From the NCBI GenBank assembly GCA_965262725.1, contig OZ253555.1:1696001-1760000 (forward strand): a stretch of 64,000 bases of DNA, given 5' to 3'. Position 1 is the stretch's first letter; each line of letters starts with the position of its first letter. A program made the position numbers and the translations under genes. This document shows, one piece after another, positions 1,539 to 17,402 of the stretch. The notes beneath the pieces are model-generated. The model did not search any database and was not told the DNA's origin. It saw only the letters and a list, made by a program, of their open reading frames with translations. Origin of the DNA: Dehalococcoidia bacterium. GTDB lineage: Bacteria > Chloroflexota > Dehalococcoidia > UBA2979.

Positions 1539-2177
1539 TCAGCGCTCGGGCCACTGGCGCTTCAATGCCTCGTGTGCGCGGTCACACGGCCATGTGCAGC
1601 TCCGGGCCTGGATCGCGTAGCCATGCAACGGGGGCAGGTCGCCGGGGCCGGGGGCCGAGCCGACGTACCGTCCAGACGCGAGGCGGCCGTCGTCGTCCTC
1701 GACGGTGGAATACGCGAGCTGGCGGTTGAAGTCGCTTCCCGCTGAACGGTAGAACGCGTCCACTGCCTCGCGCAGGGCGTGATCCTCAGCTGTGTGAGCC
1801 CCGGGTTCGGGCGGGGCGAAGCCGGGCTCGATGACCCAATCCGCCGGCGCGGGCACGACGAAGAGCGGGATGTCACGCTCGCGGGCGGCAATGAGCGAGC
1901 GCTCCGGCGGATGCGTGTGCTCGACCTCGAGCAGCGCCGTTAGCTCGCCGCGCGCGTCGAGCATGGTGATGTCGGGTATGCAGTAGCTCCCGTCCGCCAG
2001 CGGCAGGCGCCGCTCGGCAACGGCGCGGACGGCTCCCTCAAGTAGATCGAGGAGGTGGTCGTGTCCGTGTGGATCACACGTCCACACGATGAACTGGGCG
2101 GTGCGCGGAGGCGTCAGTCCCCGCAGGAGCAGGTCCAGGAGGGCGTCTTTCCACTGCTCATGCTGCCTGGATTCCAT
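1539..2177 (-). CDS. Hypothetical protein with a PD-(D/E)xK-like motif
   Basis: IPDITMLD...LLEVEHTH resembles a restriction-fold catalytic core. Confidence 0.5.
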   Translation of the reverse strand: MESRQHEQWKDALLDLLLRGLTPPRTAQFIVWTCDPHGHDHLLDLLEGAVRAVAERRLPLADGSYCIPDITMLDARGELTALLEVEHTHPPERSLIAARERDIPLFVVPAPADWVIEPGFAPPEPGAHTAEDHALREAVDAFYRSAGSDFNRQLAYSTVEDDDGRLASGRYVGSAPGPGDLPPLHGYAIQARSCTWPCDRAHEALKRQWPER

Positions 2178-2288
2178 GTGAGCGAGTCTACGTGATCGGG
2201 TTGCGAAGGCAGTGTTGGCGAATTGCCGGGTGCAGGCTACACGGAATCATCTCAGTCCTGAGCAAGTCCCGCCCACGAGGAGGAGACC

Positions 2289-2435
2289 ATGCCTGACTCC
2301 AACGAGATCCACCACCGGTGGGAGAGTGAGGGCGAGCTGTTGAACGCGCTGTCGACGAACTCTCGCGACGTTGTCCAGCGCGCTGGCATCCAGTCAATGA
2401 TCAACCGCTTCGACGGCGCGGACACCGTCGCATAA
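2289..2435 (+). CDS. Small hypothetical protein, 48 aa (not in the ORF track)
   Basis: AGGAGGAG Shine-Dalgarno before ATG 2289; MPDSNEIHHRWESEGELLNALSTNSRDVVQRAGIQSMINRFDGADTVA*. Confidence 0.4.
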   Translation: MPDSNEIHHRWESEGELLNALSTNSRDVVQRAGIQSMINRFDGADTVA

Positions 2436-2607
2436 GAGTGGTCGCTCTGCGACGGAGGCTCCGCTCCGCTACCCGCTCCGGTCGCGCGCATACGACCGCT
2501 CCCGAGGAGATCGCGGACGGCGCGCCCCGAGCGCCTCGGACGAGGGGCACTCCGCGCGCACATGGTCCATCAGCATGCATCTGGTTCAGCGATGCCGACG
2601 CGAACCG

Positions 2608-2970
2608 CTATCCGTCCTTCGCGTAGGTGAAGGGGTTGTCGACACTTCCCCAGCCGAACACGTAGACCTCTCCCTCACGCCTGCGGTCCCACTTTCTGTA
2701 GCCCTCACTAGGACGGCCGGTGGTCGCGCTGACGACCAGCCGCGTGAGCGGAGGGAGTCCGTTTCGATGGCAGTAGCCTCCGATCAGGTCGAGCATGCAA
2801 CCCAAGTTCCGTCGGGTGGCGCCGTAGCCAAGCTCGTCGGCGAGGTCGGTGTACGTGATGGTGCCCCCATCGCCGCGCGCGGCTAACTCCGTCAAAATCG
2901 GCCACGCCTGGAACGCGCGCCACTCCTCACTCACGATCACAAGGACTTCCCCTCCGGCATCGAATCGCAC
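2608..2970 (-). CDS. Hypothetical winged-helix-like protein (true start may be slightly downstream)
   Basis: TITYTDLADELG...LPPLTRLVV...TGRPSEG pattern, seen as an N-terminal module of some HNH nucleases. Confidence 0.55.
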   Translation of the reverse strand: MRFDAGGEVLVIVSEEWRAFQAWPILTELAARGDGGTITYTDLADELGYGATRRNLGCMLDLIGGYCHRNGLPPLTRLVVSATTGRPSEGYRKWDRRREGEVYVFGWGSVDNPFTYAKDG

Positions 2971-3044
2971 ACCAAGTTAGCACTGCGGGGCGGAGTAGGC
3001 TCCGCGAGTCGCGCCGTCGCGGGACGCAGCGAGAACGATGAGGA

Positions 3045-3758
3045 TCAACGAGCGTCGATCCTCATCGTTCCTCCGAGGAGCCCTTCTCCCTTTACCGCAC
3101 TGGCCTCGATCGGAAAGGCGATATCGCTAATGTCGCCGATGTCAAGCGTGAGTGGGTCCTCCCCTGATGTGTGGGTGTCTATCGCGATTCTGAACTCACG
3201 CTGGAAACTGAACTCCGTCTGCTTCCAGAACACCGCTTCGAGGCCCTCGAAGTTGCCGTGGAATGTGTCGGGATCGTAGTAGTTCACGAGTCTGCTCGCC
3301 GCCCGGTAGCCGTTATCTGTACAGGCGCCTTTGAGTCGATCCATGAAGGCAGCCACATCACAGATCACCACTGCATATGGTCCCAGGGAAAGGCAGGCAT
3401 CATCTACGCGGAGGGCTTCTCGCAGCACTTCGATGTTGTCGTGTGAGATTGTCTCCAAGTCGACGTCCCCGCTATGGACGGCATGTATGCAGAACAGGTG
3501 GAATTCGGAAAGAAAGTCCAACTGGATTTGGAGCGTTATGAGCCCTTCGCTGAGGTCCATACCATTGAGGACCAAGGTCAGGTTCGCCCCTTGTAGCCAG
3601 CTCGTAGTTCCTTCGTCACGGTCGATCCGGGCAGTCGTGTCCTCCCCTTCAGCCCTTCTGAATGCGGAGAGCCTGTTGGCAAACACCTTCCCCTGGAGGA
3701 AAGCTTCAGCGTATTCCTGCTTGTCAAAGAACTTGATGAAGAGAAAGATCCTCCTCAT
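3045..3758 (-). CDS. Hypothetical protein, DUF2971-like
   Basis: Lower-GC 237 aa ORF; VNYYD...FWKQTEFSFQREFRIAI resembles the K-x3-F/W-x2-E/Q-x-E-x-R signature. Confidence 0.55.
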   Translation of the reverse strand: MRRIFLFIKFFDKQEYAEAFLQGKVFANRLSAFRRAEGEDTTARIDRDEGTTSWLQGANLTLVLNGMDLSEGLITLQIQLDFLSEFHLFCIHAVHSGDVDLETISHDNIEVLREALRVDDACLSLGPYAVVICDVAAFMDRLKGACTDNGYRAASRLVNYYDPDTFHGNFEGLEAVFWKQTEFSFQREFRIAIDTHTSGEDPLTLDIGDISDIAFPIEASAVKGEGLLGGTMRIDAR

Positions 3759-9841: not shown

Positions 9842-10915
9842 ATGGAATCCCGCACATCCTTCTGCCTTCCGCCGCCACGCTCGGCAATCGACCTTTTTGC
9901 CGGAGCGGGTGGTTCGGTGCAGGGCCTGTCGCAAGCAGGATTTTCCATGCTAGCTGCGGTCGAAGAAGACGCGGAAGCCGCAGCGACACTCAAGGCCAAC
10001 CACCCACAGATGAGGGTACTGAGGCGCGACGTGAGCCTAGTCTCGCCGCGAAAGCTGCGCGAGTGCCTTGGACTAGCGCGCGGTGACCTTGGACTGCTCA
10101 CCGCGTGCCCACCCTGCCAGGGGTTTTCGACGTTAGGAACGCTGGACCCATCGGACGAGCGCAACGATCTCGTCGCACAGGTATGGAAGTACGCGCGGGA
10201 GTTCCGACCAGCCGGGGTCCTCCTCGAGAACGTCCCCGGACTCTCACGCGATCCTCGTTGCGACCGCCTGTTCAGACAGCTTCGAGCTGCTGGATACGGT
10301 CTCCGGACCTGGATCGTGGACGCAGCGGACTTCGGTGTACCACAGCGACGACGCAGGCTCATCGCAATCGCCGCACGCGGCGTCCAGAAGGATGAGATGC
10401 CACTTGATCTCCGCGATGCCTTGCCCGCTGACTTCAGCCTGCGGCCGCAATTTGCGGACGAAGCAATCTCGCTCGCAGGGCGGCTGGATGGCACCGCCGA
10501 CTCGTTGCATCGCGCCCGCCAATTGTCACCGAGGGTGCTCGAGCGGATCCGCGCGATACCACGAGGGGGAAGCCACCGGGACCTACCGGACGCGCTTCGA
10601 CTCGCCTGTCATGTACGGCTCGCGGAACGGGGAAAGAAGGGTGCTACCGCACCATACGGACGGATCCGCATTGGGGAACCCGCACCGACGATCACCACGC
10701 GATGTACTACTGTTTCCTGCGGGCGCTTCGTCCACCCGACTGAAGACCGCGGCATCAGCCTGCGCGAGGCTGCGCTTTTGCAGACGTTCCCGTTCGAGTA
10801 CTCGTTCATTGGCTCGCACGGCGCAGTCGAGCGCCAGATCGGTAACGCTGTGCCTGTTCGACTCGCGGAGGCGCTAGGACTTGCAGTAAGGCGGATACTC
10901 CTGCAGGTCGGCTAA
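9842..10915 (+). CDS. dcm: DNA (cytosine-5) methyltransferase
   Basis: DLFAGAGG (I), PPCQGFS (IV), ENV (VI), PQRRRR (VIII), QIGNAVP (X). Confidence 0.95.
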   Translation: MESRTSFCLPPPRSAIDLFAGAGGSVQGLSQAGFSMLAAVEEDAEAAATLKANHPQMRVLRRDVSLVSPRKLRECLGLARGDLGLLTACPPCQGFSTLGTLDPSDERNDLVAQVWKYAREFRPAGVLLENVPGLSRDPRCDRLFRQLRAAGYGLRTWIVDAADFGVPQRRRRLIAIAARGVQKDEMPLDLRDALPADFSLRPQFADEAISLAGRLDGTADSLHRARQLSPRVLERIRAIPRGGSHRDLPDALRLACHVRLAERGKKGATAPYGRIRIGEPAPTITTRCTTVSCGRFVHPTEDRGISLREAALLQTFPFEYSFIGSHGAVERQIGNAVPVRLAEALGLAVRRILLQVG

Positions 10916-11238: not shown

Positions 11239-11730
11239 ATGCCGTACCATTCCGCCCTGCACGACAGCGACAACGTTGACCACGCCGAGCACGGTTGCCC
11301 GCGCGCGGCCCGCATTCTAGACCGTTGCGACTGTGAGGAGCGGCGCCCGGCGGCGCGGTGCAGTTGGTGCTACACCGGTCGTATAGAGCGCGACCCCGCC
11401 CAATTGGATCATGAACGGCACTACGCCACCCTTGCGATGGAGCCTCCTGCGTGGCGCGCGAGCGTTGTATGCGGCTCCGGCGCCGATGTGGACGTCAGCC
11501 AGGCTCTGGGGGCGTTCACCGGGAGCATTGAGGAGATCGACGGGGCGGTGCGCTTCGACCCAGCGAAGGGCCCGCTCTTCATCGAGTGCTCCAAGCACGG
11601 GATGTACCTTGGCTACTGGCGGCTTCTTCCTCGAGCCGGCGGCGCGGCCTTCAAGCCTCTCTCAATCCCTCTTCTGCTGATACCGCTCCGGGACGTGGAG
11701 CACGTCATTCCGCTGTATCAATCTCCCTGA
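11239..11730 (+). CDS. Hypothetical Cys/His-rich protein
   Basis: 163 aa ORF starting 2 nt after the upstream stop; no family recognised. Confidence 0.45.
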   Translation: MPYHSALHDSDNVDHAEHGCPRAARILDRCDCEERRPAARCSWCYTGRIERDPAQLDHERHYATLAMEPPAWRASVVCGSGADVDVSQALGAFTGSIEEIDGAVRFDPAKGPLFIECSKHGMYLGYWRLLPRAGGAAFKPLSIPLLLIPLRDVEHVIPLYQSP

Positions 11731-11883
11731 CCATCAAGCGAGACCAATTGACCCGACCCCCTGAAACGGGACCGCTGTTGATGAGAGTCCTTTGGCCCGC
11801 GAGGGTGGGCGGAGGAGGACATCACGGTGAAACGACGCAGGCATACGGCTGAGCAGATCGTGCGGAAGCTTCCATGAGGGTCG

Positions 11884-12219
11884 TCTGATCCGCAAGGCCG
11901 ACGTGGCGGTCTTCTGCGCCGTCTACCGATCGCGCCTCCCATCCGCAGCCCTGTTGTGGTTGTCGGTACAGATACGAGTGGTGTCGTCGTGTCGTCCCCG
12001 GGAAGTCGTGGTGGCCATGCTTCCATTCGCACTCGTCGAGGGGCCTCTCCGGGCCCGGTGCATGATGGTCAACCTGTCTCCAGGGTGTGGGCGCTGCCAT
12101 CTGAGGGCCGTCCTCGTTGGGACCAGCTTCCGTCGCAGTCGCCCGAACGTCGGCATCCCTCGCATCCTCCGGAGCCCACCGGCCGCCCGGTCGCCTCGCT
12201 CCTCGCATGCTGCCCGCTG
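11884..12219 (-). ncRNA. Putative bridge/seek RNA of the IS1111 element
   Basis: Internal loop with ctgaggg (12101-12107) and cagcttccg (12124-12132) matches both halves of the reconstituted target cggaagCTgaggg; cttccat (12020-12026) matches the donor junction; boundaries approximate. Confidence 0.7.
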
Positions 12220-12838
12220 CTACGCCGCCTCGGCCGCGTGCGCGTGGCGCAACGGCTCGTAGACCTCGCCGCTCTTCCAGAGTGCAAGCATCAGCACCGC
12301 CAGTCGCCTCGCGACCGCGACGACGGCACGCTTCTTCGCATTGCCGGCCCCCGACTCCGCGTACCGCAGCCCCCACCTGCGGAGGTCGCTGTCGGGGCCG
12401 AAGGGGCCCAGGATGTAGTGCGCGGCCTGGTTCAGCACCCGGCGCAGCGCCACGTCCCCTTCCTTCGTGATCCGCAGCTGGGGCTGCCGGTCACCGGAAT
12501 CGCGGCTCCGGGGCACCAGCCCGAGGTAGGGCCCCACCTCCCTGTTCTTCGGGAAGCGGTTCGGGTCCTCGATGGTGAGGACGAAGGTGAGCGAGGTGAT
12601 CGGGCCAACGCCCACGATCTGCTGGAGCACGCCGGTCTCGGGGTAGCGCTCGCACATCGCGGCGAGTTGCTTGTCGGCCTGGCGTATCTCCCCGGTCAGG
12701 TGCTCGATCTGGTGGAGCATCGGCAGCAACGCCGGGCCCAGCTGTCGATCGCCAGGGTCATTGATCCACGCGTCGCCACGGTCATTAGACCACCCGGGAC
12801 GCCGGTAGGCGGCTTGATATCAGTGAGCGTCTAGCGCG

Positions 12839-13612
12839 TCAATCACCTCCCGTCTGCGCCTCGAGCAGGGCGCGGTGCGGCGAGAGCCGCTGGCGGTAGC
12901 TATCGCCCTCGATCACGATCTGGTAGCTGGCGTTGGCGAGCCGGTCGAGGGCGCTGTTGCCGAGGATCGGGTCGTCGAAGAGACCCAGCCATTCCTCCAC
13001 GGCGCGGTTCGAGGTGATGACGAAGCTGGAGCTGCGGTGGCGCCCGATGACCAGCTCGTAGAGGTCGATGGACTGCTGCGCGCTGAGGCGATGGAGCCCG
13101 AGGTCGTCGAGGATGAGCAGGTCGGGCGCGAGGAAGCTTCGGAAGACCTTCTCGGCCGAGTGGTCGACGCGGGCCTGCGCCATCTCGCGGAAGTAGTGGT
13201 CGGCCGGGGCGAAGCGCACGGTGCGTCCGGAGCGGACGGCTGAGTAGCCGAGCGCCTGGGCCAGGAAGCTCTTGCCGACGCCGACGGGGCCGACGAGCAG
13301 GACGTGCTCGCGGCGATCGAGGAAGTGCAGCGAGAAGGCGGCGTCGAGCAGGCGGCGGTCGAGCCGGATGGCGGCCGCCCAGTCGAAGTCCTCGAGGCGG
13401 CAGAGCTGCTCGAAGCCGGCCTGGCGCAGGCGCAGCTCCAACCGCCCGTGGTCGCGGCGGCTCACCTCGTCGACGAGCAGGATCTGCAGGAAGTCCGCGT
13501 AGTCGAGGTGGTCGCGCCGCGCGAGGGCGATGCGCTCGGGCAGGGTGTCGAGCATACGGCCGAGCTTGAGGCGCTTGAGCAGCGGACGGAGGTCTGAGGT
13601 GGTGGCGGTCAT
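12839..13612 (-). CDS. istB: IS21 helper ATPase IstB
   Basis: GPVGVGKS Walker A, LLILDDLG, ITSN and ALDRL; ATGA overlap with istA. Confidence 0.95.
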   Translation of the reverse strand: MTATTSDLRPLLKRLKLGRMLDTLPERIALARRDHLDYADFLQILLVDEVSRRDHGRLELRLRQAGFEQLCRLEDFDWAAAIRLDRRLLDAAFSLHFLDRREHVLLVGPVGVGKSFLAQALGYSAVRSGRTVRFAPADHYFREMAQARVDHSAEKVFRSFLAPDLLILDDLGLHRLSAQQSIDLYELVIGRHRSSSFVITSNRAVEEWLGLFDDPILGNSALDRLANASYQIVIEGDSYRQRLSPHRALLEAQTGGD

Positions 13613-15189
13613 CGTGGTGCTCCTGTCGGGGTCTGCGTGCGGGACTGTGCGAAGACGGAGCCCGAGTGGGCGAAGCGCCCCGGAGGTGGCGGCAGCTCGG
13701 GCTGGTCTGGGGTGCTCTCCTGGTCGAGGGCCTCGACGAGGATGCGCTCGAGGCGGCGCACGTCGATGAGGTCGACCTCGAGCGCGCGGCGGCAGGCGGC
13801 GTCGAGGCGGTCGGGGGAGTAGCGCTCGGCGAGCCGGAGGAGCTTGTGGCCCTGCCGCAGCTTCGCCCAGGGCAGGGAGCCCTCGAAGAGACGCTCGGCG
13901 TAGGCGCCCACGGCCTCCCCCAGCTCGGCGGCGCGGCGCTGTATCCAGTCGGGCGCCCGCCTGGTGTAGGGGGTGAGCTCGGCCGGGTAGTCGTTCGGGT
14001 CGGTGGCCCGGCCGCCCCGGCGCTGGCGCGGGTGGACCTTGATGAGCTGACCGCGGTGGTAGATGCGCACCAGCTTCGAGCCGAGCTGCACCTCGACCTT
14101 CTGGCGGGGCGGGCAGGCCGTGGACGGCACCGAGTACAGCGCGTACTGGCAGGCGATGTGGTGGTCGGGATGGACCGTGGCGGTCCGCCAGTCGGGGACC
14201 TCGTAGGGCTCGCCGTCCCACGGAGCGAGCAGAGGGAGCTCCTCCTCCCGGAAGACCTCGAGCGGCCGGCGGCGGGTCGTGCCGTGGATGCGCTGCCCCG
14301 CCACCTCGAGGCACCAGCTGCGGGCGGCGGAGCGCAGGTCGACGATGTCCCGGAAGTCGCCGCCCTTGAAGAGGCGCTCGCGCACGTAGGGGATGCTGCG
14401 CTCGACGCGCGGCTTGTCGCGGGGATGACGTACGCGCGCCGGGTCGGTGATGAAGCCTCTGTGGCGGGCGTACTCGAGGAAGCCCCGGGTGAGGCGCGGG
14501 TGGAGCGCGTCGGCCCCGGCCACGGCGGCCGGGAAGTTATCGATGACGAGGTAGCGGGGCACGCCCCCGAAGAAGGACCAGGCCTCCTCCAGGCCCTCGA
14601 TCACGGCGTCCAGCGTCTGGCTGGTGGTGGGCCACACAAAGCAGTGGCGTGAGTAGCGCCAGACGACGACCAGCGCCCACACCGCGCGCCGGCGGCCGCT
14701 CTCGGGGTCCCGGATGAAGCCGAGGCGGCCGAAGTCCATCTCCGCCACCTCGCCCGGCGGCCCGTCGTCCATGCGCACGGTCGACGGCAGCCGGTGGCGC
14801 CAGCCGCGGCGCCGGATGAAACGCCGCAGCGTGGTGTAGGAGACCTCGCAGCCTCGTCCGGCGAGGAGCTCCTGGATGCGCGTCAGTTGCAGGCGGTCGG
14901 TCTCAAGCCAGCGCTCGATCTGCTCCGCCCAGGGCGAGAGCAGCTCCTCGCTCGGCGCCTCGACCTGCCGCGGGCCGGAGAGGCTCAGCGTCGCCAGCGC
15001 GGCGAGCTGCTCCTCACTCGGCTCGGGACCGCCCGGCGTGAGGCCGGCCGCCTCGGCCGCCTCGACGTAGCGGCGCACCGTCACGCGCGATAGCCCCGTG
15101 CCGCTGGCGATGCGGCGCTGGCTGAGCCCCGCCTGCCAGCGTCGAATGATCTCCTGGATCTCCACCCCGTGTACCTCCCGGTAGGCCAT
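13609..15189 (-). CDS. istA: IS21 transposase IstA
   Basis: N-terminal HTH, AEMDFG, LVIDN, DKPRVER, RIHGTT and YSVP. Confidence 0.95.
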   Translation of the reverse strand: MAYREVHGVEIQEIIRRWQAGLSQRRIASGTGLSRVTVRRYVEAAEAAGLTPGGPEPSEEQLAALATLSLSGPRQVEAPSEELLSPWAEQIERWLETDRLQLTRIQELLAGRGCEVSYTTLRRFIRRRGWRHRLPSTVRMDDGPPGEVAEMDFGRLGFIRDPESGRRRAVWALVVVWRYSRHCFVWPTTSQTLDAVIEGLEEAWSFFGGVPRYLVIDNFPAAVAGADALHPRLTRGFLEYARHRGFITDPARVRHPRDKPRVERSIPYVRERLFKGGDFRDIVDLRSAARSWCLEVAGQRIHGTTRRRPLEVFREEELPLLAPWDGEPYEVPDWRTATVHPDHHIACQYALYSVPSTACPPRQKVEVQLGSKLVRIYHRGQLIKVHPRQRRGGRATDPNDYPAELTPYTRRAPDWIQRRAAELGEAVGAYAERLFEGSLPWAKLRQGHKLLRLAERYSPDRLDAACRRALEVDLIDVRRLERILVEALDQESTPDQPELPPPPGRFAHSGSVFAQSRTQTPTGAPR

Positions 15190-16258
15190 CGCTGCTCCCT
15201 CCGCTGGGGATGCAGGCGATGGTGGCCGTACCGGCGACCCGGGCGGGCAGGAGTCCCTGACGGGGTGGATCAATGACCCTGGCGAAGTGGATCAATGACC
15301 CTGGCGATCTGGCGATTTCGTGGTCTATAGACCTTGGCGATTCACAGCAGCTCCTCGGGGATGTGCCCGATGACCGCGCGGTGGAAGACCGGCGCCGTGC
15401 AGCTCGGAAGCGCCGCGCCCCACGCCTTCACCGCGCCCCGGACGTGGTTGATCAACATCGTGCGCGCCCGGACCAGCGCCTCGCGGCTGCGGAGCACCTG
15501 GAGGTCCGCCTGCGCCATGGCGCTTCGGTGCCGGATGGGGAAGAGGAGCGCCGGGTCGAATCGGCCGAGCCGTGCGAGGTGCTCGGCATCGGAGCGGTCG
15601 GTCTTGCGCTGGCTGCGCGCGATCAGCCTGACCTGCCTCGGGTTGGCGACGATGACGTCGTGCCCGAGCTCCGAGAGCATCCGGCTCAGCCACGGGGACC
15701 GCGGCCCCACCTCCATCACCACCCGCGCGCCCGTCATCCCGGCGAGCGCCCGCGTGAGCGCCGCGGTCGTGGTGCGGACTCGCTCCTCCCGCACGATCTC
15801 CCCCTCGCCACCGAGGACGCAGAGGTGGCTGTAGCGGTCGCTGACGTCGATGCCGACAGTCACGAGCTCCGCATCCCCCACCTTCCTGCTCTCTGTGACA
15901 TCTGATGTACCCTCTGCCACGGTCGGTCTCCTACCTCTCGGCTCGCCTGAGCCGTTCTCCTGGGCCACCACGTGAGCCCGTGCCTGGAGGGGAAGTATCC
16001 CCTCTGAGGAGGGGACCGACCCTCATGCCATCTGAGGGAGGCGGAGCGGCTGCTCGGCGAAGGGCAGACGATCGCCGAGGCGGCGAAGCAGGTCGAGATC
16101 TCGGAGCAGACCTACCACCGCTGGCGCAACCAGTACGGCGGGATGAAGGCCGACGACGCCAGGCGGCTGCGCGAGCTGGAGCGCGAGAACGCGCGTCTGA
16201 AGCGGATCGTCGCCGACAAGGAACTCGAGATCGACGCGCTCAAGGAGATCGCGCGGGG

Positions 16259-17098
16259 AAATTGGTAAGCCCGTCGCGCCGGCGTGAGGCGGTCTGCATG
16301 TTGCAGGACCGCCTCGAGTTGTCGGAACGACGGGCATGCCGGGTCACCGGCCAGCACCGCTCCACGCAGCGCCGCCTCCTGGCACGCGGCCGCGGCGACG
16401 ACGCGCTGCGGACGGAGTTGCACGCCTTCTCGCGTGGCCATTCCCGCTGGGGGTACCGCCGGGCCTGGGCGACCTTGTGCGAGGAGGGCTGGGGTGTGAA
16501 TCGCAAGCGGGTGCAACGCGTCCCGGTGAAACGACGCAAGCGTCAGCGCCTGGGGGACTCGGCAGTGCCCGCCGTGCGGCTGCGGGCTGAGCGGCCGAAC
16601 CACGTCTGGGCGCTGGACTTCCAGTTCGACCAGACCGCGGACGGGCGGGTCCTGAAGCTGCTCAACATCGTTGACGAGCACACACGGGAGGCGCTGGCGA
16701 TCGTGGCCGCCAGGAGCATCACCGCCGACGCTACCGCCGCCACGCTCGACCGGATCGTCGCCGGGCGCGGAACGGCGCCTGGGTACATCCGGTGTGACAA
16801 CGGTCCCGAGCTCACGGCCAACGCCCTGCGCGACTGGTGCCGGTTCTCCGGCACGGGCAGCAGCTACATCGAGCCCGGTGCGCCGTGGGAGAACCCGTAC
16901 GTGGAGTCGTTCAACGGCCGGTTGCGCGATGAGTTCCTGGCCGTCGAGCAGTTCGACAGCTTGCTCGAGGCGCAGGTGCTGATCGAGGACTGGCGGATCG
17001 AGTACAACACGAAGCGCCCGCACAGCAGCCTCGGCTGGCTCGCCCCGGCTGCCTACGCCGAGCAACGCAGGGCGGAACAACTGGTTGGACTCTCATAA
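16259..17098 (+). CDS. IS3 OrfB DDE transposase (frameshift-coupled; small internal deletion likely)
   Basis: WGYRR, WALDF, IRCDNGPE, PGAPWENPYVESFNG and RPHSSLG; the usual LWREEGLR-like segment after KRVQR is absent. Confidence 0.88.
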   Translation, partial: KLVSPSRRREAVCMLQDRLELSERRACRVTGQHRSTQRRLLARGRGDDALRTELHAFSRGHSRWGYRRAWATLCEEGWGVNRKRVQRVPVKRRKRQRLGDSAVPAVRLRAERPNHVWALDFQFDQTADGRVLKLLNIVDEHTREALAIVAARSITADATAATLDRIVAGRGTAPGYIRCDNGPELTANALRDWCRFSGTGSSYIEPGAPWENPYVESFNGRLRDEFLAVEQFDSLLEAQVLIEDWRIEYNTKRPHSSLGWLAPAAYAEQRRAEQLVGLS

Positions 17099-17402
17099 GC
17101 GGTGGTCTCGCGAAGGGGGTCCGGTCACACCCGCAGCCCGCGCCGACTCGAACTCCTCCAGCGCCTGCCTCCGCTGCTCGATACGCAGGACCGCGTCGCG
17201 AGCGCGCTGCTCCTGCTCCGCTGCGCTCAGCCCGCGTCCGTCGCGGTGTCGATACGAGCGAGCGGGATAGCTGGTGGTGCACCGGGACCAGGATGTGCAA
17301 GCGGGCGCGGCAACGAAGAAGTCGGCCCGACCAGCGGGGCCGTCGGCGGTCAGGGCGTGCGGTATCCTGCTGCGTCGGATCGCATCGAGCGAAGGAGAAC
17401 CT

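What the first reader, a model, noticed from the sequence alone, without database searches (positions are those of the whole stretch)
11869..12219. IS1111 bridge/seek RNA apparently programmed against another transposon's gene
Seen: the empty target is cggaagCTgaggg within IS3 orfA. The 3' non-coding end has a stem (ctgc 12094-12097 / gcag 12135-12138) enclosing ctgaggg (12101-12107), an inner hairpin gtcc-tcgttg-ggac, and cagcttccg (12124-12132, the reverse complement of cggaagctg). These are two guides for opposite strands overlapping at the CT core. cttccat (12020-12026) and tgccatct (12095-12102) match the donor circle junction atgccatCTtccatg, which would also create TTGCGG-N17-GAAGAT. 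Known: IS110/IS1111 recombinases are RNA-guided. Inference: this element is an RNA-guided hyperparasite of IS3/IS407 elements and inactivates them; repairing the IS21 insertion would give a new programmable recombinase.
Basis: partly seen in the sequence, partly recalled or inferred. Interest (0 to 1): 0.85.

Follow-up and report, generated by a model that had tools for sequence, protein, structure and literature searches.

The report
IS1111 guide RNA aimed at IS3
A broken jumping gene carries a small guide-RNA gene whose two short guide stretches spell out the exact spot inside another jumping gene where it sits, a clear natural example of an already known RNA-guided insertion mechanism.

Summary
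The region 11869-12219 is the 3' non-coding end, on the minus strand, of an IS1111-type element (11869-16033). This element sits in orfA of an IS3 element, and an IS21 insertion has broken it.

Its RNA gene has the published IS1111 seekRNA layout. The arm that pairs with the top strand (CGGAAGCUG) lies 5' of the arm that pairs with the bottom strand (CCCUCAG). Together they spell the site cggaagCTgaggg.

Four intact sister copies in the same genome are 92-96% identical. They carry different arms and sit in a different site, the reverse-transcriptase ORF of a group II intron, and their arms match that site.

I found 22 arm pairs in related genomes and metagenomes. Own-site matches averaged 11.8 nt, against 6.4 nt for mismatched pairings.

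One donor guide (AUGGAAG) is confirmed. The other, tgccatct, is misassigned; a better candidate lies at 12063-12072.

The "IS3 hyperparasite" reading is only partly supported. This arm pair occurs once, the copy is dead, and 21 related IS3 orfA copies are unoccupied. However, 10 of the 22 arm pairs sit in or against other mobile elements.

No repair is needed to obtain a working enzyme. This is a new member of a known kind.

The parts
11749..11870 (+). Left part of the host IS3-family element: IRL at 11749-11780, orfA start at 11827, left half-site cggaagCT at 11863-11870.
   Evidence: the IRL recurs at other IS3 copies; the reading frame was read.
11869..16033 (-). IS1111-type element, including the nested IS21. 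The core dinucleotide CT (AG in element sense) is present at both ends.
   Evidence: Sister copies of 1555 bp define the ends.
11873..11883 (.). Subterminal inverted repeat at the right end of the element (CATGAGGGTCG on the + strand). Its partner is at 16017-16027.
   Evidence: Read. Conserved in relatives.
16017..16027 (.). Subterminal inverted repeat at the left end of the element (CGACCCTCATG on the + strand), followed by the extension ccat and the core CT at 16032-16033.
   Evidence: Read.
11890..11895 (-). TTGCGG in element sense, the -35-like hexamer of the proposed circle-junction promoter. It lies in an invariant block of the right end.
   Evidence: CCTTGC.GA is invariant in 11 of 11 aligned relatives and the remaining G of TTGCGG is kept in 10 of 11. 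Promoter activity was not tested.
12014..12154 (-). Core of the seekRNA/bridge RNA gene, about 140 nt, from the outer stem GCCG to its partner UGGC.
   Evidence: Consensus fold of 11 relatives. 99.4% of cells are paired, against 31-41.5% when the partners are slid.
12124..12132 (-). 5' target arm CGGAAGCUG. It is complementary to the top strand, in element sense, of the flank next to the right end (AGcttccg).
12110..12123 (-). Hairpin GUCC-CAACGA-GGAC that separates the two target arms.
   Evidence: Conserved in all relatives.
12101..12107 (-). 3' target arm CCCUCAG. It is identical to the top strand, in element sense, of the flank next to the left end (ccctcAG).
12089..12100 (-). AUG plus the closing stem GCAG-CGCCC. 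Together with the core it reads AGAUGGCA, identical to the start of the left end. It may act like a handshake guide, but it is not a donor guide.
   Evidence: Invariant between win and sister although the left ends differ. The handshake-guide concept comes from PMC11208158, passages read.
12073..12084 (-). Small hairpin CCUG-GAGA-CAGG between the target and donor domains.
   Evidence: invariant. It is the insertion site of another family member in L053.
12063..12072 (-). Candidate 5' donor arm UUGACCAUCA. Five nt are complementary to the start of the left end (GATGG).
   Evidence: C/U here changes with G/A in the left end between win and sister. L031 is an exception.
12020..12027 (-). 3' donor arm AAUGGAAG, identical to the last 7 nt of the right end plus core (ATGGAAG).
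   Evidence: Changes with the right end in 16 of 16 distinct combinations and in 11 of 11 rows of the alignment.
12220..12742 (-). C-terminal part of the transposase gene (Transposase_20; contains GLVPRSRDSG). The stop codon is at 12220-12222.
   Evidence: No stop or frameshift relative to the sister.
12743..15347 (-). IS21-family element (istA 13609-15273, istB 12839-13612) inserted in the IS1111 transposase gene. Direct repeat CAGC(T).
   Evidence: A 100% identical copy lies elsewhere in the genome.
15348..15971 (-). N-terminal part of the transposase gene (DEDD_Tnp_IS110).
16032..17128 (+). Right part of the host IS3: half-site CTgaggg at 16032-16038, rest of orfA to 16268, orfB at 16298-17098, IRR about 17116-17128.

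Best explanation
Positions 11869-12219, read on the minus strand, are the right non-coding end of an IS1111-family insertion sequence. This end encodes a seekRNA (bridge RNA) of about 140 nt.

The target loop is an internal loop between the stem GGGCG-A-CUGC/GCAG-CGCCC and the hairpin GUCC/GGAC. It presents two arms:
- CGGAAGCUG pairs with the top strand of the DNA that now flanks the right end.
- CCCUCAG pairs with the bottom strand of the DNA that now flanks the left end.
- The two arms overlap at the core dinucleotide (CT on the window's + strand).

A second domain carries the donor arms. AAUGGAAG is identical to the right end. UUGACCAUCA is probably partly complementary to the left end.

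The inferred mechanism is as follows. The DEDD transposase bound to this RNA recombined the circle junction of the element with the site cggaagCT|gaggg. That site lies at codons 13-17 of orfA of an IS3-family element, so the insertion splits that gene. An IS21 element later inserted into the IS1111 transposase gene, so this copy can no longer move on its own.

Shown here: the anatomy, family membership, arm/target matching and its co-variation across relatives.

Inferred from published work on the family: that an RNA is made, that it binds the enzyme, and that it directed this insertion.
For: Family:
- DEDD_Tnp_IS110 (1.2e-20) and Transposase_20 (6.3e-19) on the two gene halves.
- The intact sister protein hits NF033542, "IS110 family RNA-guided transposase", at 217 bits against a cut-off of 140.
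- 11-bp subterminal inverted repeats.
- A 350-nt non-coding region downstream of the gene, and the motif GLVPRSRDSG. These are the IS1111 hallmarks named in PMC11187229, sections 4 and 6.

Arm order: the top-strand complement lies 5' of the bottom-strand match, as published for IS1111 seekRNAs (section 9 of that paper).

Natural control in the same genome:
- Four intact copies carry the arms AACCCCCUG / GAACAAG and sit in ccccCT|tgttc. The window copy carries CGGAAGCUG / CCCUCAG and sits in cggaagCT|gaggg.
- The arms differ at 12 of 18 positions, against 58 of 862 elsewhere (Fisher p = 3e-10).

Relatives:
- 22 distinct arm pairs were found on one conserved scaffold.
- In 25 insertions with both flanks, the cognate summed match averaged 11.8 nt, against 6.4 for 574 non-cognate pairings. 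Twelve of 25 cognate pairings reached 13 or more, against 1 of 574. This copy scores 15.

Donor: the 3' donor arm equals the last 7 nt of the right end in 16 of 16 combinations.

Structure: in the consensus fold 99.4% of cells are paired, against 31-41.5% with slid partners.
Against: - There is no evidence that the RNA is made. No run held half or more of the sampled words. The one RNA-library run laid (1 of 3 listed) gave contigs only, which cannot show transcription.
- The minimum-energy fold of the whole 357 nt is no more stable than shuffles (z = +0.83; 80 of 100 shuffles fold at least as well).
- 23 of 30 consensus pairs never vary, and only 2 show a change on both sides. The helices are conserved rather than proven by covariation.
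- 7 of the 25 cognate pairings scored 9 or less (L036, L037, L044, L045, L056, L062, L083).
- The 5' donor arm has only 5 complementary nt, and L031 breaks its co-variation.
- No Rfam family matched the region.
- This copy is dead, and its arm pair is a singleton.
Confidence: 0.88

Rival explanations
1. One reading: the element is an adapted hyperparasite of IS3/IS407 elements, and its lineage spreads by seeking out and inactivating them.
For: - The arms match the IS3 orfA site over 15 nt, and the insertion splits orfA after codon 15.
- The same IS3 family is abundant in related genomes: 21 of 99 genomes hold it, with up to 25 copies in one.
- A second arm pair (L040) sits cleanly in orfB of the same IS3 family, at the position equal to window 17024/17025.
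- In run X1, two contigs read C at 12104 and A at 12106. That would fit a CGA-codon allele of the same IS3 site, which is seen in L097 and L114. The whole contigs were not visible.
Against: - This arm pair occurs once among the 39 scaffold matches in the 8 of 99 order genomes that hold the scaffold.
- The exact 41-mer gave 0 hits in metagenome contigs.
- Of the 24 IS3 orfA copies that could be inspected (out of 30 loci fetched), only the window's is occupied. None of the 21 uninterrupted ones carries the exact 13-mer.
- The genome holds no other copy of the 13-mer.
- The copy is dead.
Confidence: 0.25
2. The clade has no special liking for mobile elements. Arms drift or are replaced, insertions happen wherever the arms match, and the copies that survive are those in dispensable, repeated DNA. 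That DNA is largely other mobile elements.
For: - Some arm pairs sit in ordinary genes: L032 in a subtilase, L034 in a VWA protein, L083 beside a permease, L060 beside an InlB-repeat protein.
- These genomes are crowded with mobile DNA. In G000 there are at least 15 near-full IS21 copies and at least 14 group II intron copies.
- Nested clusters are common in the relatives.
Against: - 10 of 22 arm pairs lie in or against mobile-element DNA, and in most of these the arms match that DNA. The exceptions: the L039 pair scores 12, and within the intron-5'-end pair L036 and L037 score only 6 and 9.
- The sister pair occupies 4 of 14 copies of its site, including one in a diverged intron of about 71% identity. 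That points to repeated on-target use.
Confidence: 0.45
3. The match exists because the arms were copied from the flanks after an off-target insertion (templated guide capture), rather than the arms having chosen the site.
For: - Whole arms differ between copies that are otherwise 93% identical: 12 of 18 positions against 6.7% elsewhere.
- The DNA of the 3' arm plus the next 6 nt equals the left junction (ccctcAGatggca).
- The recombinase seems to act on look-alike sites in its own non-coding region. Tandem right-end repeats in L038, L040, L042/L074 and L066 all rejoin after an internal AG, in 9 of 9 joints.
- A 232-nt head-to-tail joint appears in two runs.
Against: - No intermediate was seen.
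- Match lengths on the left side are tightly 7-8 nt in the clean cases. That looks like functional constraint rather than variable capture tracts.
- Published reprogramming needs no such step (PMC11187229, section 10).
Confidence: 0.12
4. The arm/flank identity is a coincidence and the region is only a structured untranslated tail.
For: The fold of the whole region is not unusually stable, and there was no Rfam hit.
Against: Only 1 of 574 non-cognate pairings reached 13, against 15 here. The sister copies switch both arms together with the site.
Confidence: 0.02

Closest known systems
ISEc11 / ISXne4 and other IS1111-family seekRNA elements (Siddiquee et al. 2024, PMC11187229; sections 4, 6, 9, 10, 13 and 14 read)
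   Same: DEDD transposase of about 340-350 aa. Subterminal inverted repeats. Non-coding region downstream of the gene. Two short target matches in which the top-strand complement lies 5' of the bottom-strand match. Natural redirection by replacement of the matching stretches.
   Different: The published natural example compares elements whose transposases are 72% identical. Here the redirected pair lives in one genome at 92-96% DNA identity, and 22 arm pairs share one scaffold. The targets are coding regions of other mobile elements. A second, donor-matching domain is visible here; that paper describes target matches only.
[quoted passage not shown]
   Same: An IS1111-family element whose specific site lies inside another transposon.
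   Different: Their site is the transposon's terminal repeat. Here the site is inside orfA of an IS3 element, and for the sisters inside a group II intron ORF. I did not read that paper.
ISKpn4 / ISPst6 / ISPa25 (attC sites of integron cassettes) and ISPa11 (REP sequences), as described in PMC11187229, sections 4 and 9
   Same: Specific targets in repeated, partly mobile DNA. The same arm order.
   Different: Different hosts (Proteobacteria) and structured non-coding targets. Here the hosts are MAGs titled Dehalococcoidia and the targets are protein-coding sequence.
IS621 bridge RNA (Durrant et al. 2024, PMC11208160, and Hiraizumi et al. 2024, PMC11208158; passages read)
   Same: One RNA carries a target loop and a donor loop, each with two arms for opposite strands that meet at a core dinucleotide. 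CT is the core in both. There may be handshake-like bases next to an arm.
   Different: The IS621 RNA is encoded upstream of the gene and its arm order is reversed. IS621 has only 2-3-bp subterminal repeats. The donor domain here sits in a multi-branch junction rather than a simple internal loop in the consensus fold.

Membership tests
IS1111 family (within ISfinder's IS110 family) | DEDD (RuvC-like) N-terminal domain plus a PF02371 C-terminal domain | tested here: met
   PF01548 at 1.2e-20 and PF02371 at 6.3e-19 on the two halves. The intact sister hits NF033542 at 217 bits against a cut-off of 140.
IS1111 family (within ISfinder's IS110 family) | Subterminal inverted repeats of about 11-13 bp with short asymmetric terminal extensions | tested here: met
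   CATGAGGGTCG at 11873-11883 and its complement at 16017-16027. The extensions are 2 and 4 nt beside the core, or 8 nt in all with one core copy. The paper gives 7+3 or 6+3, so the lengths differ slightly.
IS1111 family (within ISfinder's IS110 family) | Long non-coding region downstream of the transposase gene | tested here: met
   The stop codon is at 12220-12222 and the element ends at 11869/11871, giving about 350 nt.
IS1111 family (within ISfinder's IS110 family) | C-terminal motif GL-P----S(T)G and a transposase of about 330-350 aa | tested here: met
   GLVPRSRDSG in the window's C-terminal half and in the sister. The sister ORF is about 349 aa from the conserved start region.
IS1111 family (within ISfinder's IS110 family) | In the seekRNA, the top-strand complement lies 5' of the bottom-strand match | tested here: met
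   In RNA sense, CGGAAGCUG (complement of AGcttccg) precedes CCCUCAG (identical to ccctcAG). The rule was read.
IS1111 family (within ISfinder's IS110 family) | Circular intermediate with abutted ends, and RNA that co-purifies with the transposase | not testable with these tools
   This needs bench work. The head-to-tail joint seen is an internal 232-nt unit, not the full circle junction.
Bridge RNA in the IS621 sense (bispecific guide) | Target loop whose two arms co-vary with the two target flanks | tested here: met
   Cognate mean 11.8 against non-cognate 6.4; 12 of 25 against 1 of 574 reach 13 or more. Win against sister.
Bridge RNA in the IS621 sense (bispecific guide) | Donor loop whose two arms co-vary with the two element ends | tested here: inconclusive
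   3' arm: 16 of 16 combinations, but only two states (G/A). 5' arm: 5-6 complementary nt. It co-varies between win and sister, but L031 does not fit.
Bridge RNA in the IS621 sense (bispecific guide) | RNA encoded in the left end, upstream of the recombinase gene | tested here: not met
   The RNA lies downstream of the gene. This is the IS1111 arrangement, not the IS110/IS621 one.
IS3 family (host element) | orfA with HTH_Tnp_1 and orfB with an rve integrase core | tested here: met
   HTH_Tnp_1 at 1.1e-13. rve and rve_3. NF033516 at 204.5 bits against a cut-off of 160. Assignment to the IS407 subgroup was not tested.

The most novel reading that the evidence does not exclude
This clade of IS1111 elements, found in MAGs titled Dehalococcoidia, may be a fast-retargeting parasite of other mobile elements. 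Its targets include IS3 orfA and orfB, ISNCY and IS110-type transposase genes, group II introns and even its own family's RNA gene. Its guide arms may be replaced wholesale by a templated process, and that process may involve the recombinase acting on the look-alike sites that guide-coding DNA necessarily contains. The tandem right-end arrays that always rejoin after an internal AG, and the 232-nt head-to-tail unit, would be by-products of that activity.
Probability: 0.2. Interest if true: 0.8.

Novelty: new member of a known kind. Interest (0 to 1): 0.45.

Why it matters
The mechanism is already known, so the value lies in the natural material.

- One genome holds two versions of the same element, 92-96% identical, with both target arms and one base in each end swapped. 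Each version sits in the site its own arms spell. This is close to a natural reprogramming experiment.
- Intact enzyme copies are available for testing, so nothing needs repair.
- Across a narrow group of related genomes, 22 arm pairs ride on one scaffold. This gives a compact set for asking how guides change in nature, how many mismatches are tolerated, and why so many natural targets lie in other mobile elements.
- If the preference for mobile elements is real, these elements limit IS3 elements, ISNCY elements and group II introns in their hosts.

Tried and rejected
Rfam
- A scan of 11500-16500 at E up to 1 gave only two weak hits outside the region: mir-9416, and whalefall-1 at 15995-16043 (25.9 bits against a gathering score of 37). 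I treat both as chance. No curated family covers this RNA.

Single-sequence fold
- The fold of 357 nt was not more stable than shuffles, so I did not use it as support.

Searches for the same arm pair
- The exact 41-mer of the window's loop gave 0 hits in metagenome contigs.
- The scaffold pattern found 5 metagenome loci and 8 of 99 genomes of the order. None carries the window's arm pair apart from the window's own genome.

Sequencing runs
- The best holders had 0.41 of the sampled words, and the RNA runs had 0.06.
- Laid contigs cannot show transcription, ends or strand. Parts without cover mean nothing.

Model for the IS3 deletion form
- I tried to explain the IS3 deletion form (L113, L115) as mis-excision using the sTIR-like ATGAGAGTC just inside the IS3 IRL. 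The predicted joint is 3 nt short of the observed one, so I dropped the idea.

ORF choice for context
- I picked the longest stop-to-stop frames that abut each junction. In this G+C-rich DNA many such frames are spurious, so "no Pfam hit" (L033, L035, L038, L045, L056) says nothing.
- Rows dropped before the count: insertions lacking one recognisable end, exact duplicates, and one of the two own-genome sister rows (L079).

Literature
- Searches, and a term search in the 2026 review PMC13604230, found no report of an IS110/IS1111 element aimed at an IS3 gene or a group II intron. These searches cover only the held library.
- Supplements are closed. Durrant's Supplementary Table 5 and Siddiquee's target logos for more than 300 IS may already contain such cases.

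Tools not available or not used
- I ran no protein-structure, complex or protein-database searches, because family membership was already clear.
Full report
ANATOMY

On the + strand, an IS3-family element begins at 11749 with its left inverted repeat, and orfA starts at 11827. After ...gtgcggaagCT (core at 11869-11870) comes foreign DNA up to ...catgccatCT (core at 16032-16033). orfA then continues as gagggaggcggag....

The two flanks read V-K-R-R-R-H-T-A-E-Q-I-V-R-K-L | R-E-A-E-R-L-L-G.... The second part hits HTH_Tnp_1. orfB hits rve and rve_3 and NF033516 IS3.

The insert is an IS1111-type element on the minus strand. It has a DEDD_Tnp_IS110 N-terminal half (15971 to about 15348) and a Transposase_20 C-terminal half (12742 to 12220). 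An IS21 element separates the two halves (istA and istB), flanked by CAGC(T). A 100% identical IS21 copy lies elsewhere in the genome.

The 11-bp subterminal inverted repeats are at 11873-11883 and 16017-16027.

THE OBSERVATION

In RNA sense (minus strand) the region reads:

GGGCG-A-CUGC | GA-CGGAAGCUG | GUCC-CAACGA-GGAC | GG-CCCUCAG-AUG | GCAG-CGCCC

In element orientation the target is ccctcAG|cttccg. The first arm is the complement of AGcttccg. The second arm is identical to ccctcAG.

The seekRNA paper states that in IS1111-family RNAs the top-strand complement lies 5' of the bottom-strand match, and that the order is reversed in the IS110 type (PMC11187229, abstract and section 9). This copy follows the IS1111 order.

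A NATURAL CONTROL IN THE SAME GENOME

The window's genome holds four intact 1555-bp copies that are 92-96% identical. All four sit in gcgccccCT|tgttcgcc.

Their arms read AACCCCCUG and GAACAAG, which match ccccCT and CTtgttc. The scaffold around the arms is unchanged. The arms differ from the window's at 12 of 18 positions, against 58 of 862 elsewhere (Fisher p = 3e-10).

The ends differ too. The window has catGgaAG and AGatgGcat where the sisters have catAgaAG and AGatgAcat. Two positions in the RNA gene change with them: AAUGGAAG against AAUAGAAG, and UGACCAUCA against UGAUCAUCA.

The sisters' site lies 50-66 nt into the reverse-transcriptase ORF of a group II intron:
- Rfam group-II-D1D4-6 at 170 bits against a gathering score of 49.
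- RVT_1.
- TIGR04416 at 325.6 bits against a cut-off of 300.

The genome has 10 further exact, unoccupied copies of that 17-mer. One of the four occupied introns is a diverged relative of about 71% identity, so at least two of the insertions are independent.

RELATIVES

- A protein-seeded scan of one genome per species returned 22 loci. Twenty were in MAGs titled Dehalococcoidia bacterium and two in MAGs titled Planctomycetota.
- A scaffold pattern found 5 metagenome loci.
- The same pattern hit 8 of 99 genomes of the window's order, with 0 hits for the reversed control pattern.
- Together these give 22 distinct arm pairs.

For the 25 insertions where both ends could be recognised, I took the longest common substring between each arm and the adjoining 10-11 nt of flank.
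- Cognate sums averaged 11.8 (median 12).
- The 574 non-cognate pairings averaged 6.4 (maximum 13).
- Twelve of 25 cognate pairings reached 13 or more, against 1 of 574 non-cognate ones.
- The window copy scores 7 + 8 = 15.
- Seven cognate pairings scored 9 or less (L036, L037, L044, L045, L056, L062, L083). Some of these have rearranged ends or may be recombinants.

RNA STRUCTURE

The RNAalifold consensus of 11 relatives has these parts:
- an outer stem (GCCG/UGGC);
- the stem that closes the target loop;
- the GUCC/GGAC hairpin;
- a small CCUG-GAGA-CAGG hairpin;
- a longer hairpin between the two donor arms.

On that structure 99.4% of cells pair, against 31-41.5% when the partners are slid by 1-3 columns. 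However, 23 of 30 pairs never vary and only 2 show changes on both sides. The helices are therefore conserved rather than proven by covariation. The single-sequence fold is not unusually stable, and no Rfam family matches.

DONOR RECOGNITION

Only two states occur.

It has the same sense as the left end, whereas the symmetry of the target loop calls for a complement. It also stays the same in the sisters, whose left end differs.

The better candidate is 12063-12072. It has 5-6 nt complementary to the start of the left end in both subfamilies, and its C/U changes with G/A between window and sisters. L031 is an exception.

AGAUGGCA might work like the handshake guides described for IS621, which pair with the partner DNA after strand exchange (PMC11208158, passages read). 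The 3' arm plus these bases equals the left junction product. This is an inference, and co-variation does not support it: L039 fits, while L038 and L040 do not.

THE CIRCLE-JUNCTION PROMOTER

TTGCGG-N17-GAAGAT is correct as arithmetic. The block CCTTGC.GA is invariant in all 11 aligned relatives and the remaining G of TTGCGG is kept in 10 of 11, and the spacing is the same in both subfamilies. The family is known to form such promoters (PMC11187229, section 4). The -10 hexamer matches TATAAT at only 3 of 6 positions. Activity is untested.

IS IT A HYPERPARASITE OF IS3?

Against a habit:
- The arm pair is a singleton.
- The genome has no other copy of the 13-mer.
- The same IS3 family is common: 21 of 99 genomes hold it, with up to 25 copies in one.
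- Of the 30 loci fetched, 24 could be inspected. One (the window) is occupied, 2 are a deletion form, and 21 are uninterrupted.
- None of the 21 carries the exact 13-mer. They read CTGCGGG, CTGCGCG or CTGCGAG, which are synonymous Arg codons, where the window has CTGAGGG.

For the wider idea, 10 of the 22 arm pairs lie in or against other mobile elements:
1. IS3 orfA (this copy).
2. The group II intron ORF (the sisters).
3. Inside an ISNCY transposase gene (L031; 214.7 bits, truncated at profile position 215 of 368).
4. At the 5' end of an ISNCY transposase gene (L063, 404 bits; L071 and L084 share its left flank and L084 also its right flank; L071's right end was not recognised).
5. IS3 orfB, at the position equal to window 17024/17025 (L040).
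6. A DDE_Tnp_1_4 transposase (L041, L042).
7. Directly upstream of another IS110-family transposase (L039).
8. Likewise for L066.
9. The 5' end of group II intron homologues (L036, L037, L061, L082).
10. In L053, the small hairpin CCCTGGAG|ACAGGTT of another copy of the same family. The inserted copy's arms (CCUGGAG, and the complement of GACAGGTT) match that site.

Ordinary genes also occur: L032 subtilase, L034 VWA, L083 permease, L060. Survival bias towards dispensable repeated DNA could explain much of the pattern, and I could not run a null model.

PRECEDENT

- IS1111-family members aimed at other mobile DNA are known. IS4321 and IS5075 insert in Tn21-family inverted repeats (seen as a reference entry only). 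ISKpn4 and ISPst6 insert in integron attC sites.
- Natural redirection by replaced arms has been described for ISEc11 and ISXne4 (section 10).
- My searches found no report of an IS3 gene or a group II intron as a target. The library is partial and supplements are closed.

VERDICT

The RNA-guide interpretation is well supported, with one donor arm misassigned. The specific "IS3 hunter" claim is weak, while the clade-level tendency towards mobile elements is suggestive. No repair is needed to obtain an active enzyme, because intact sisters exist. This is a new member of a known kind. Its practical value is as a natural reprogramming series.

Noticed in passing
G000:C1, e.g. 1923902-1925857 (L118); occupied copies at 336175-339660, 3304330-3307808, 3504458-3507943: The genome holds a 1.93-kb group II intron in at least 14 copies. 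Four carry the sister IS1111 in the start of the reverse-transcriptase ORF. Two other copies are interrupted near intron position 1040 by inserts of about 2.2 and 1.3 kb that I did not identify.
   Followed up: partly
window 12743-15347 and at least 15 other places in G000: The IS21 element that broke the IS1111 copy has a 100% identical twin at G000:C1:524389-526989 and many copies at 97-99% identity. It looks recently active.
   Followed up: partly
G000:C1:2413941-2414224 (L113) and L115 in another genome: A deletion form of the same IS3 consists of the 32-bp left inverted repeat joined directly to cgggaggcggag. Its right endpoint lies 1-4 nt from the IS1111 core position. The same joint occurs in two genomes. 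A mis-excision model did not fit.
   Followed up: partly
window 11869-12100 as laid in runs X1 and X18; L038, L040, L042/L074, L066: A head-to-tail joint "12100 then 11869" (a 232-nt unit) appears in one contig each of two runs, one of them an RNA library. Assembled relatives carry tandem repeats of the right-end-proximal region. In 9 of 9 joints (7 distinct) the internal re-entry point follows an AG, which is the core dinucleotide.
   Followed up: partly
L053 (metagenome contig), positions about 1923-3560: One IS1111 copy is inserted in the small hairpin of another copy's RNA gene, and its arms match that site. Here the family targets itself.
   Followed up: partly
window 11870 (loose ends) and 12104/12106 in runs X1, X4, X18: Other samples hold uninterrupted IS3 orfA alleles that continue GCGCGAGGTGGAG after cggaagCT. 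X1 also holds element variants whose 3' arm reads CTGCGAG on the + strand, which would fit a CGA-codon allele of the same site. The whole contigs were not visible.
   Followed up: partly
window 9842-10915 (+): A 357-aa ORF just upstream of the IS3 begins with D-L-F-A-G-A-G-G, read from the sequence. From memory this resembles motif I of C-5 cytosine DNA methyltransferases. I ran no family search on it.
   Followed up: no
window 15995-16043 (+): There is a weak Rfam hit to whalefall-1 (25.9 bits against a gathering score of 37) on a hairpin in the left end of the IS1111 element. It is probably chance.
   Followed up: no
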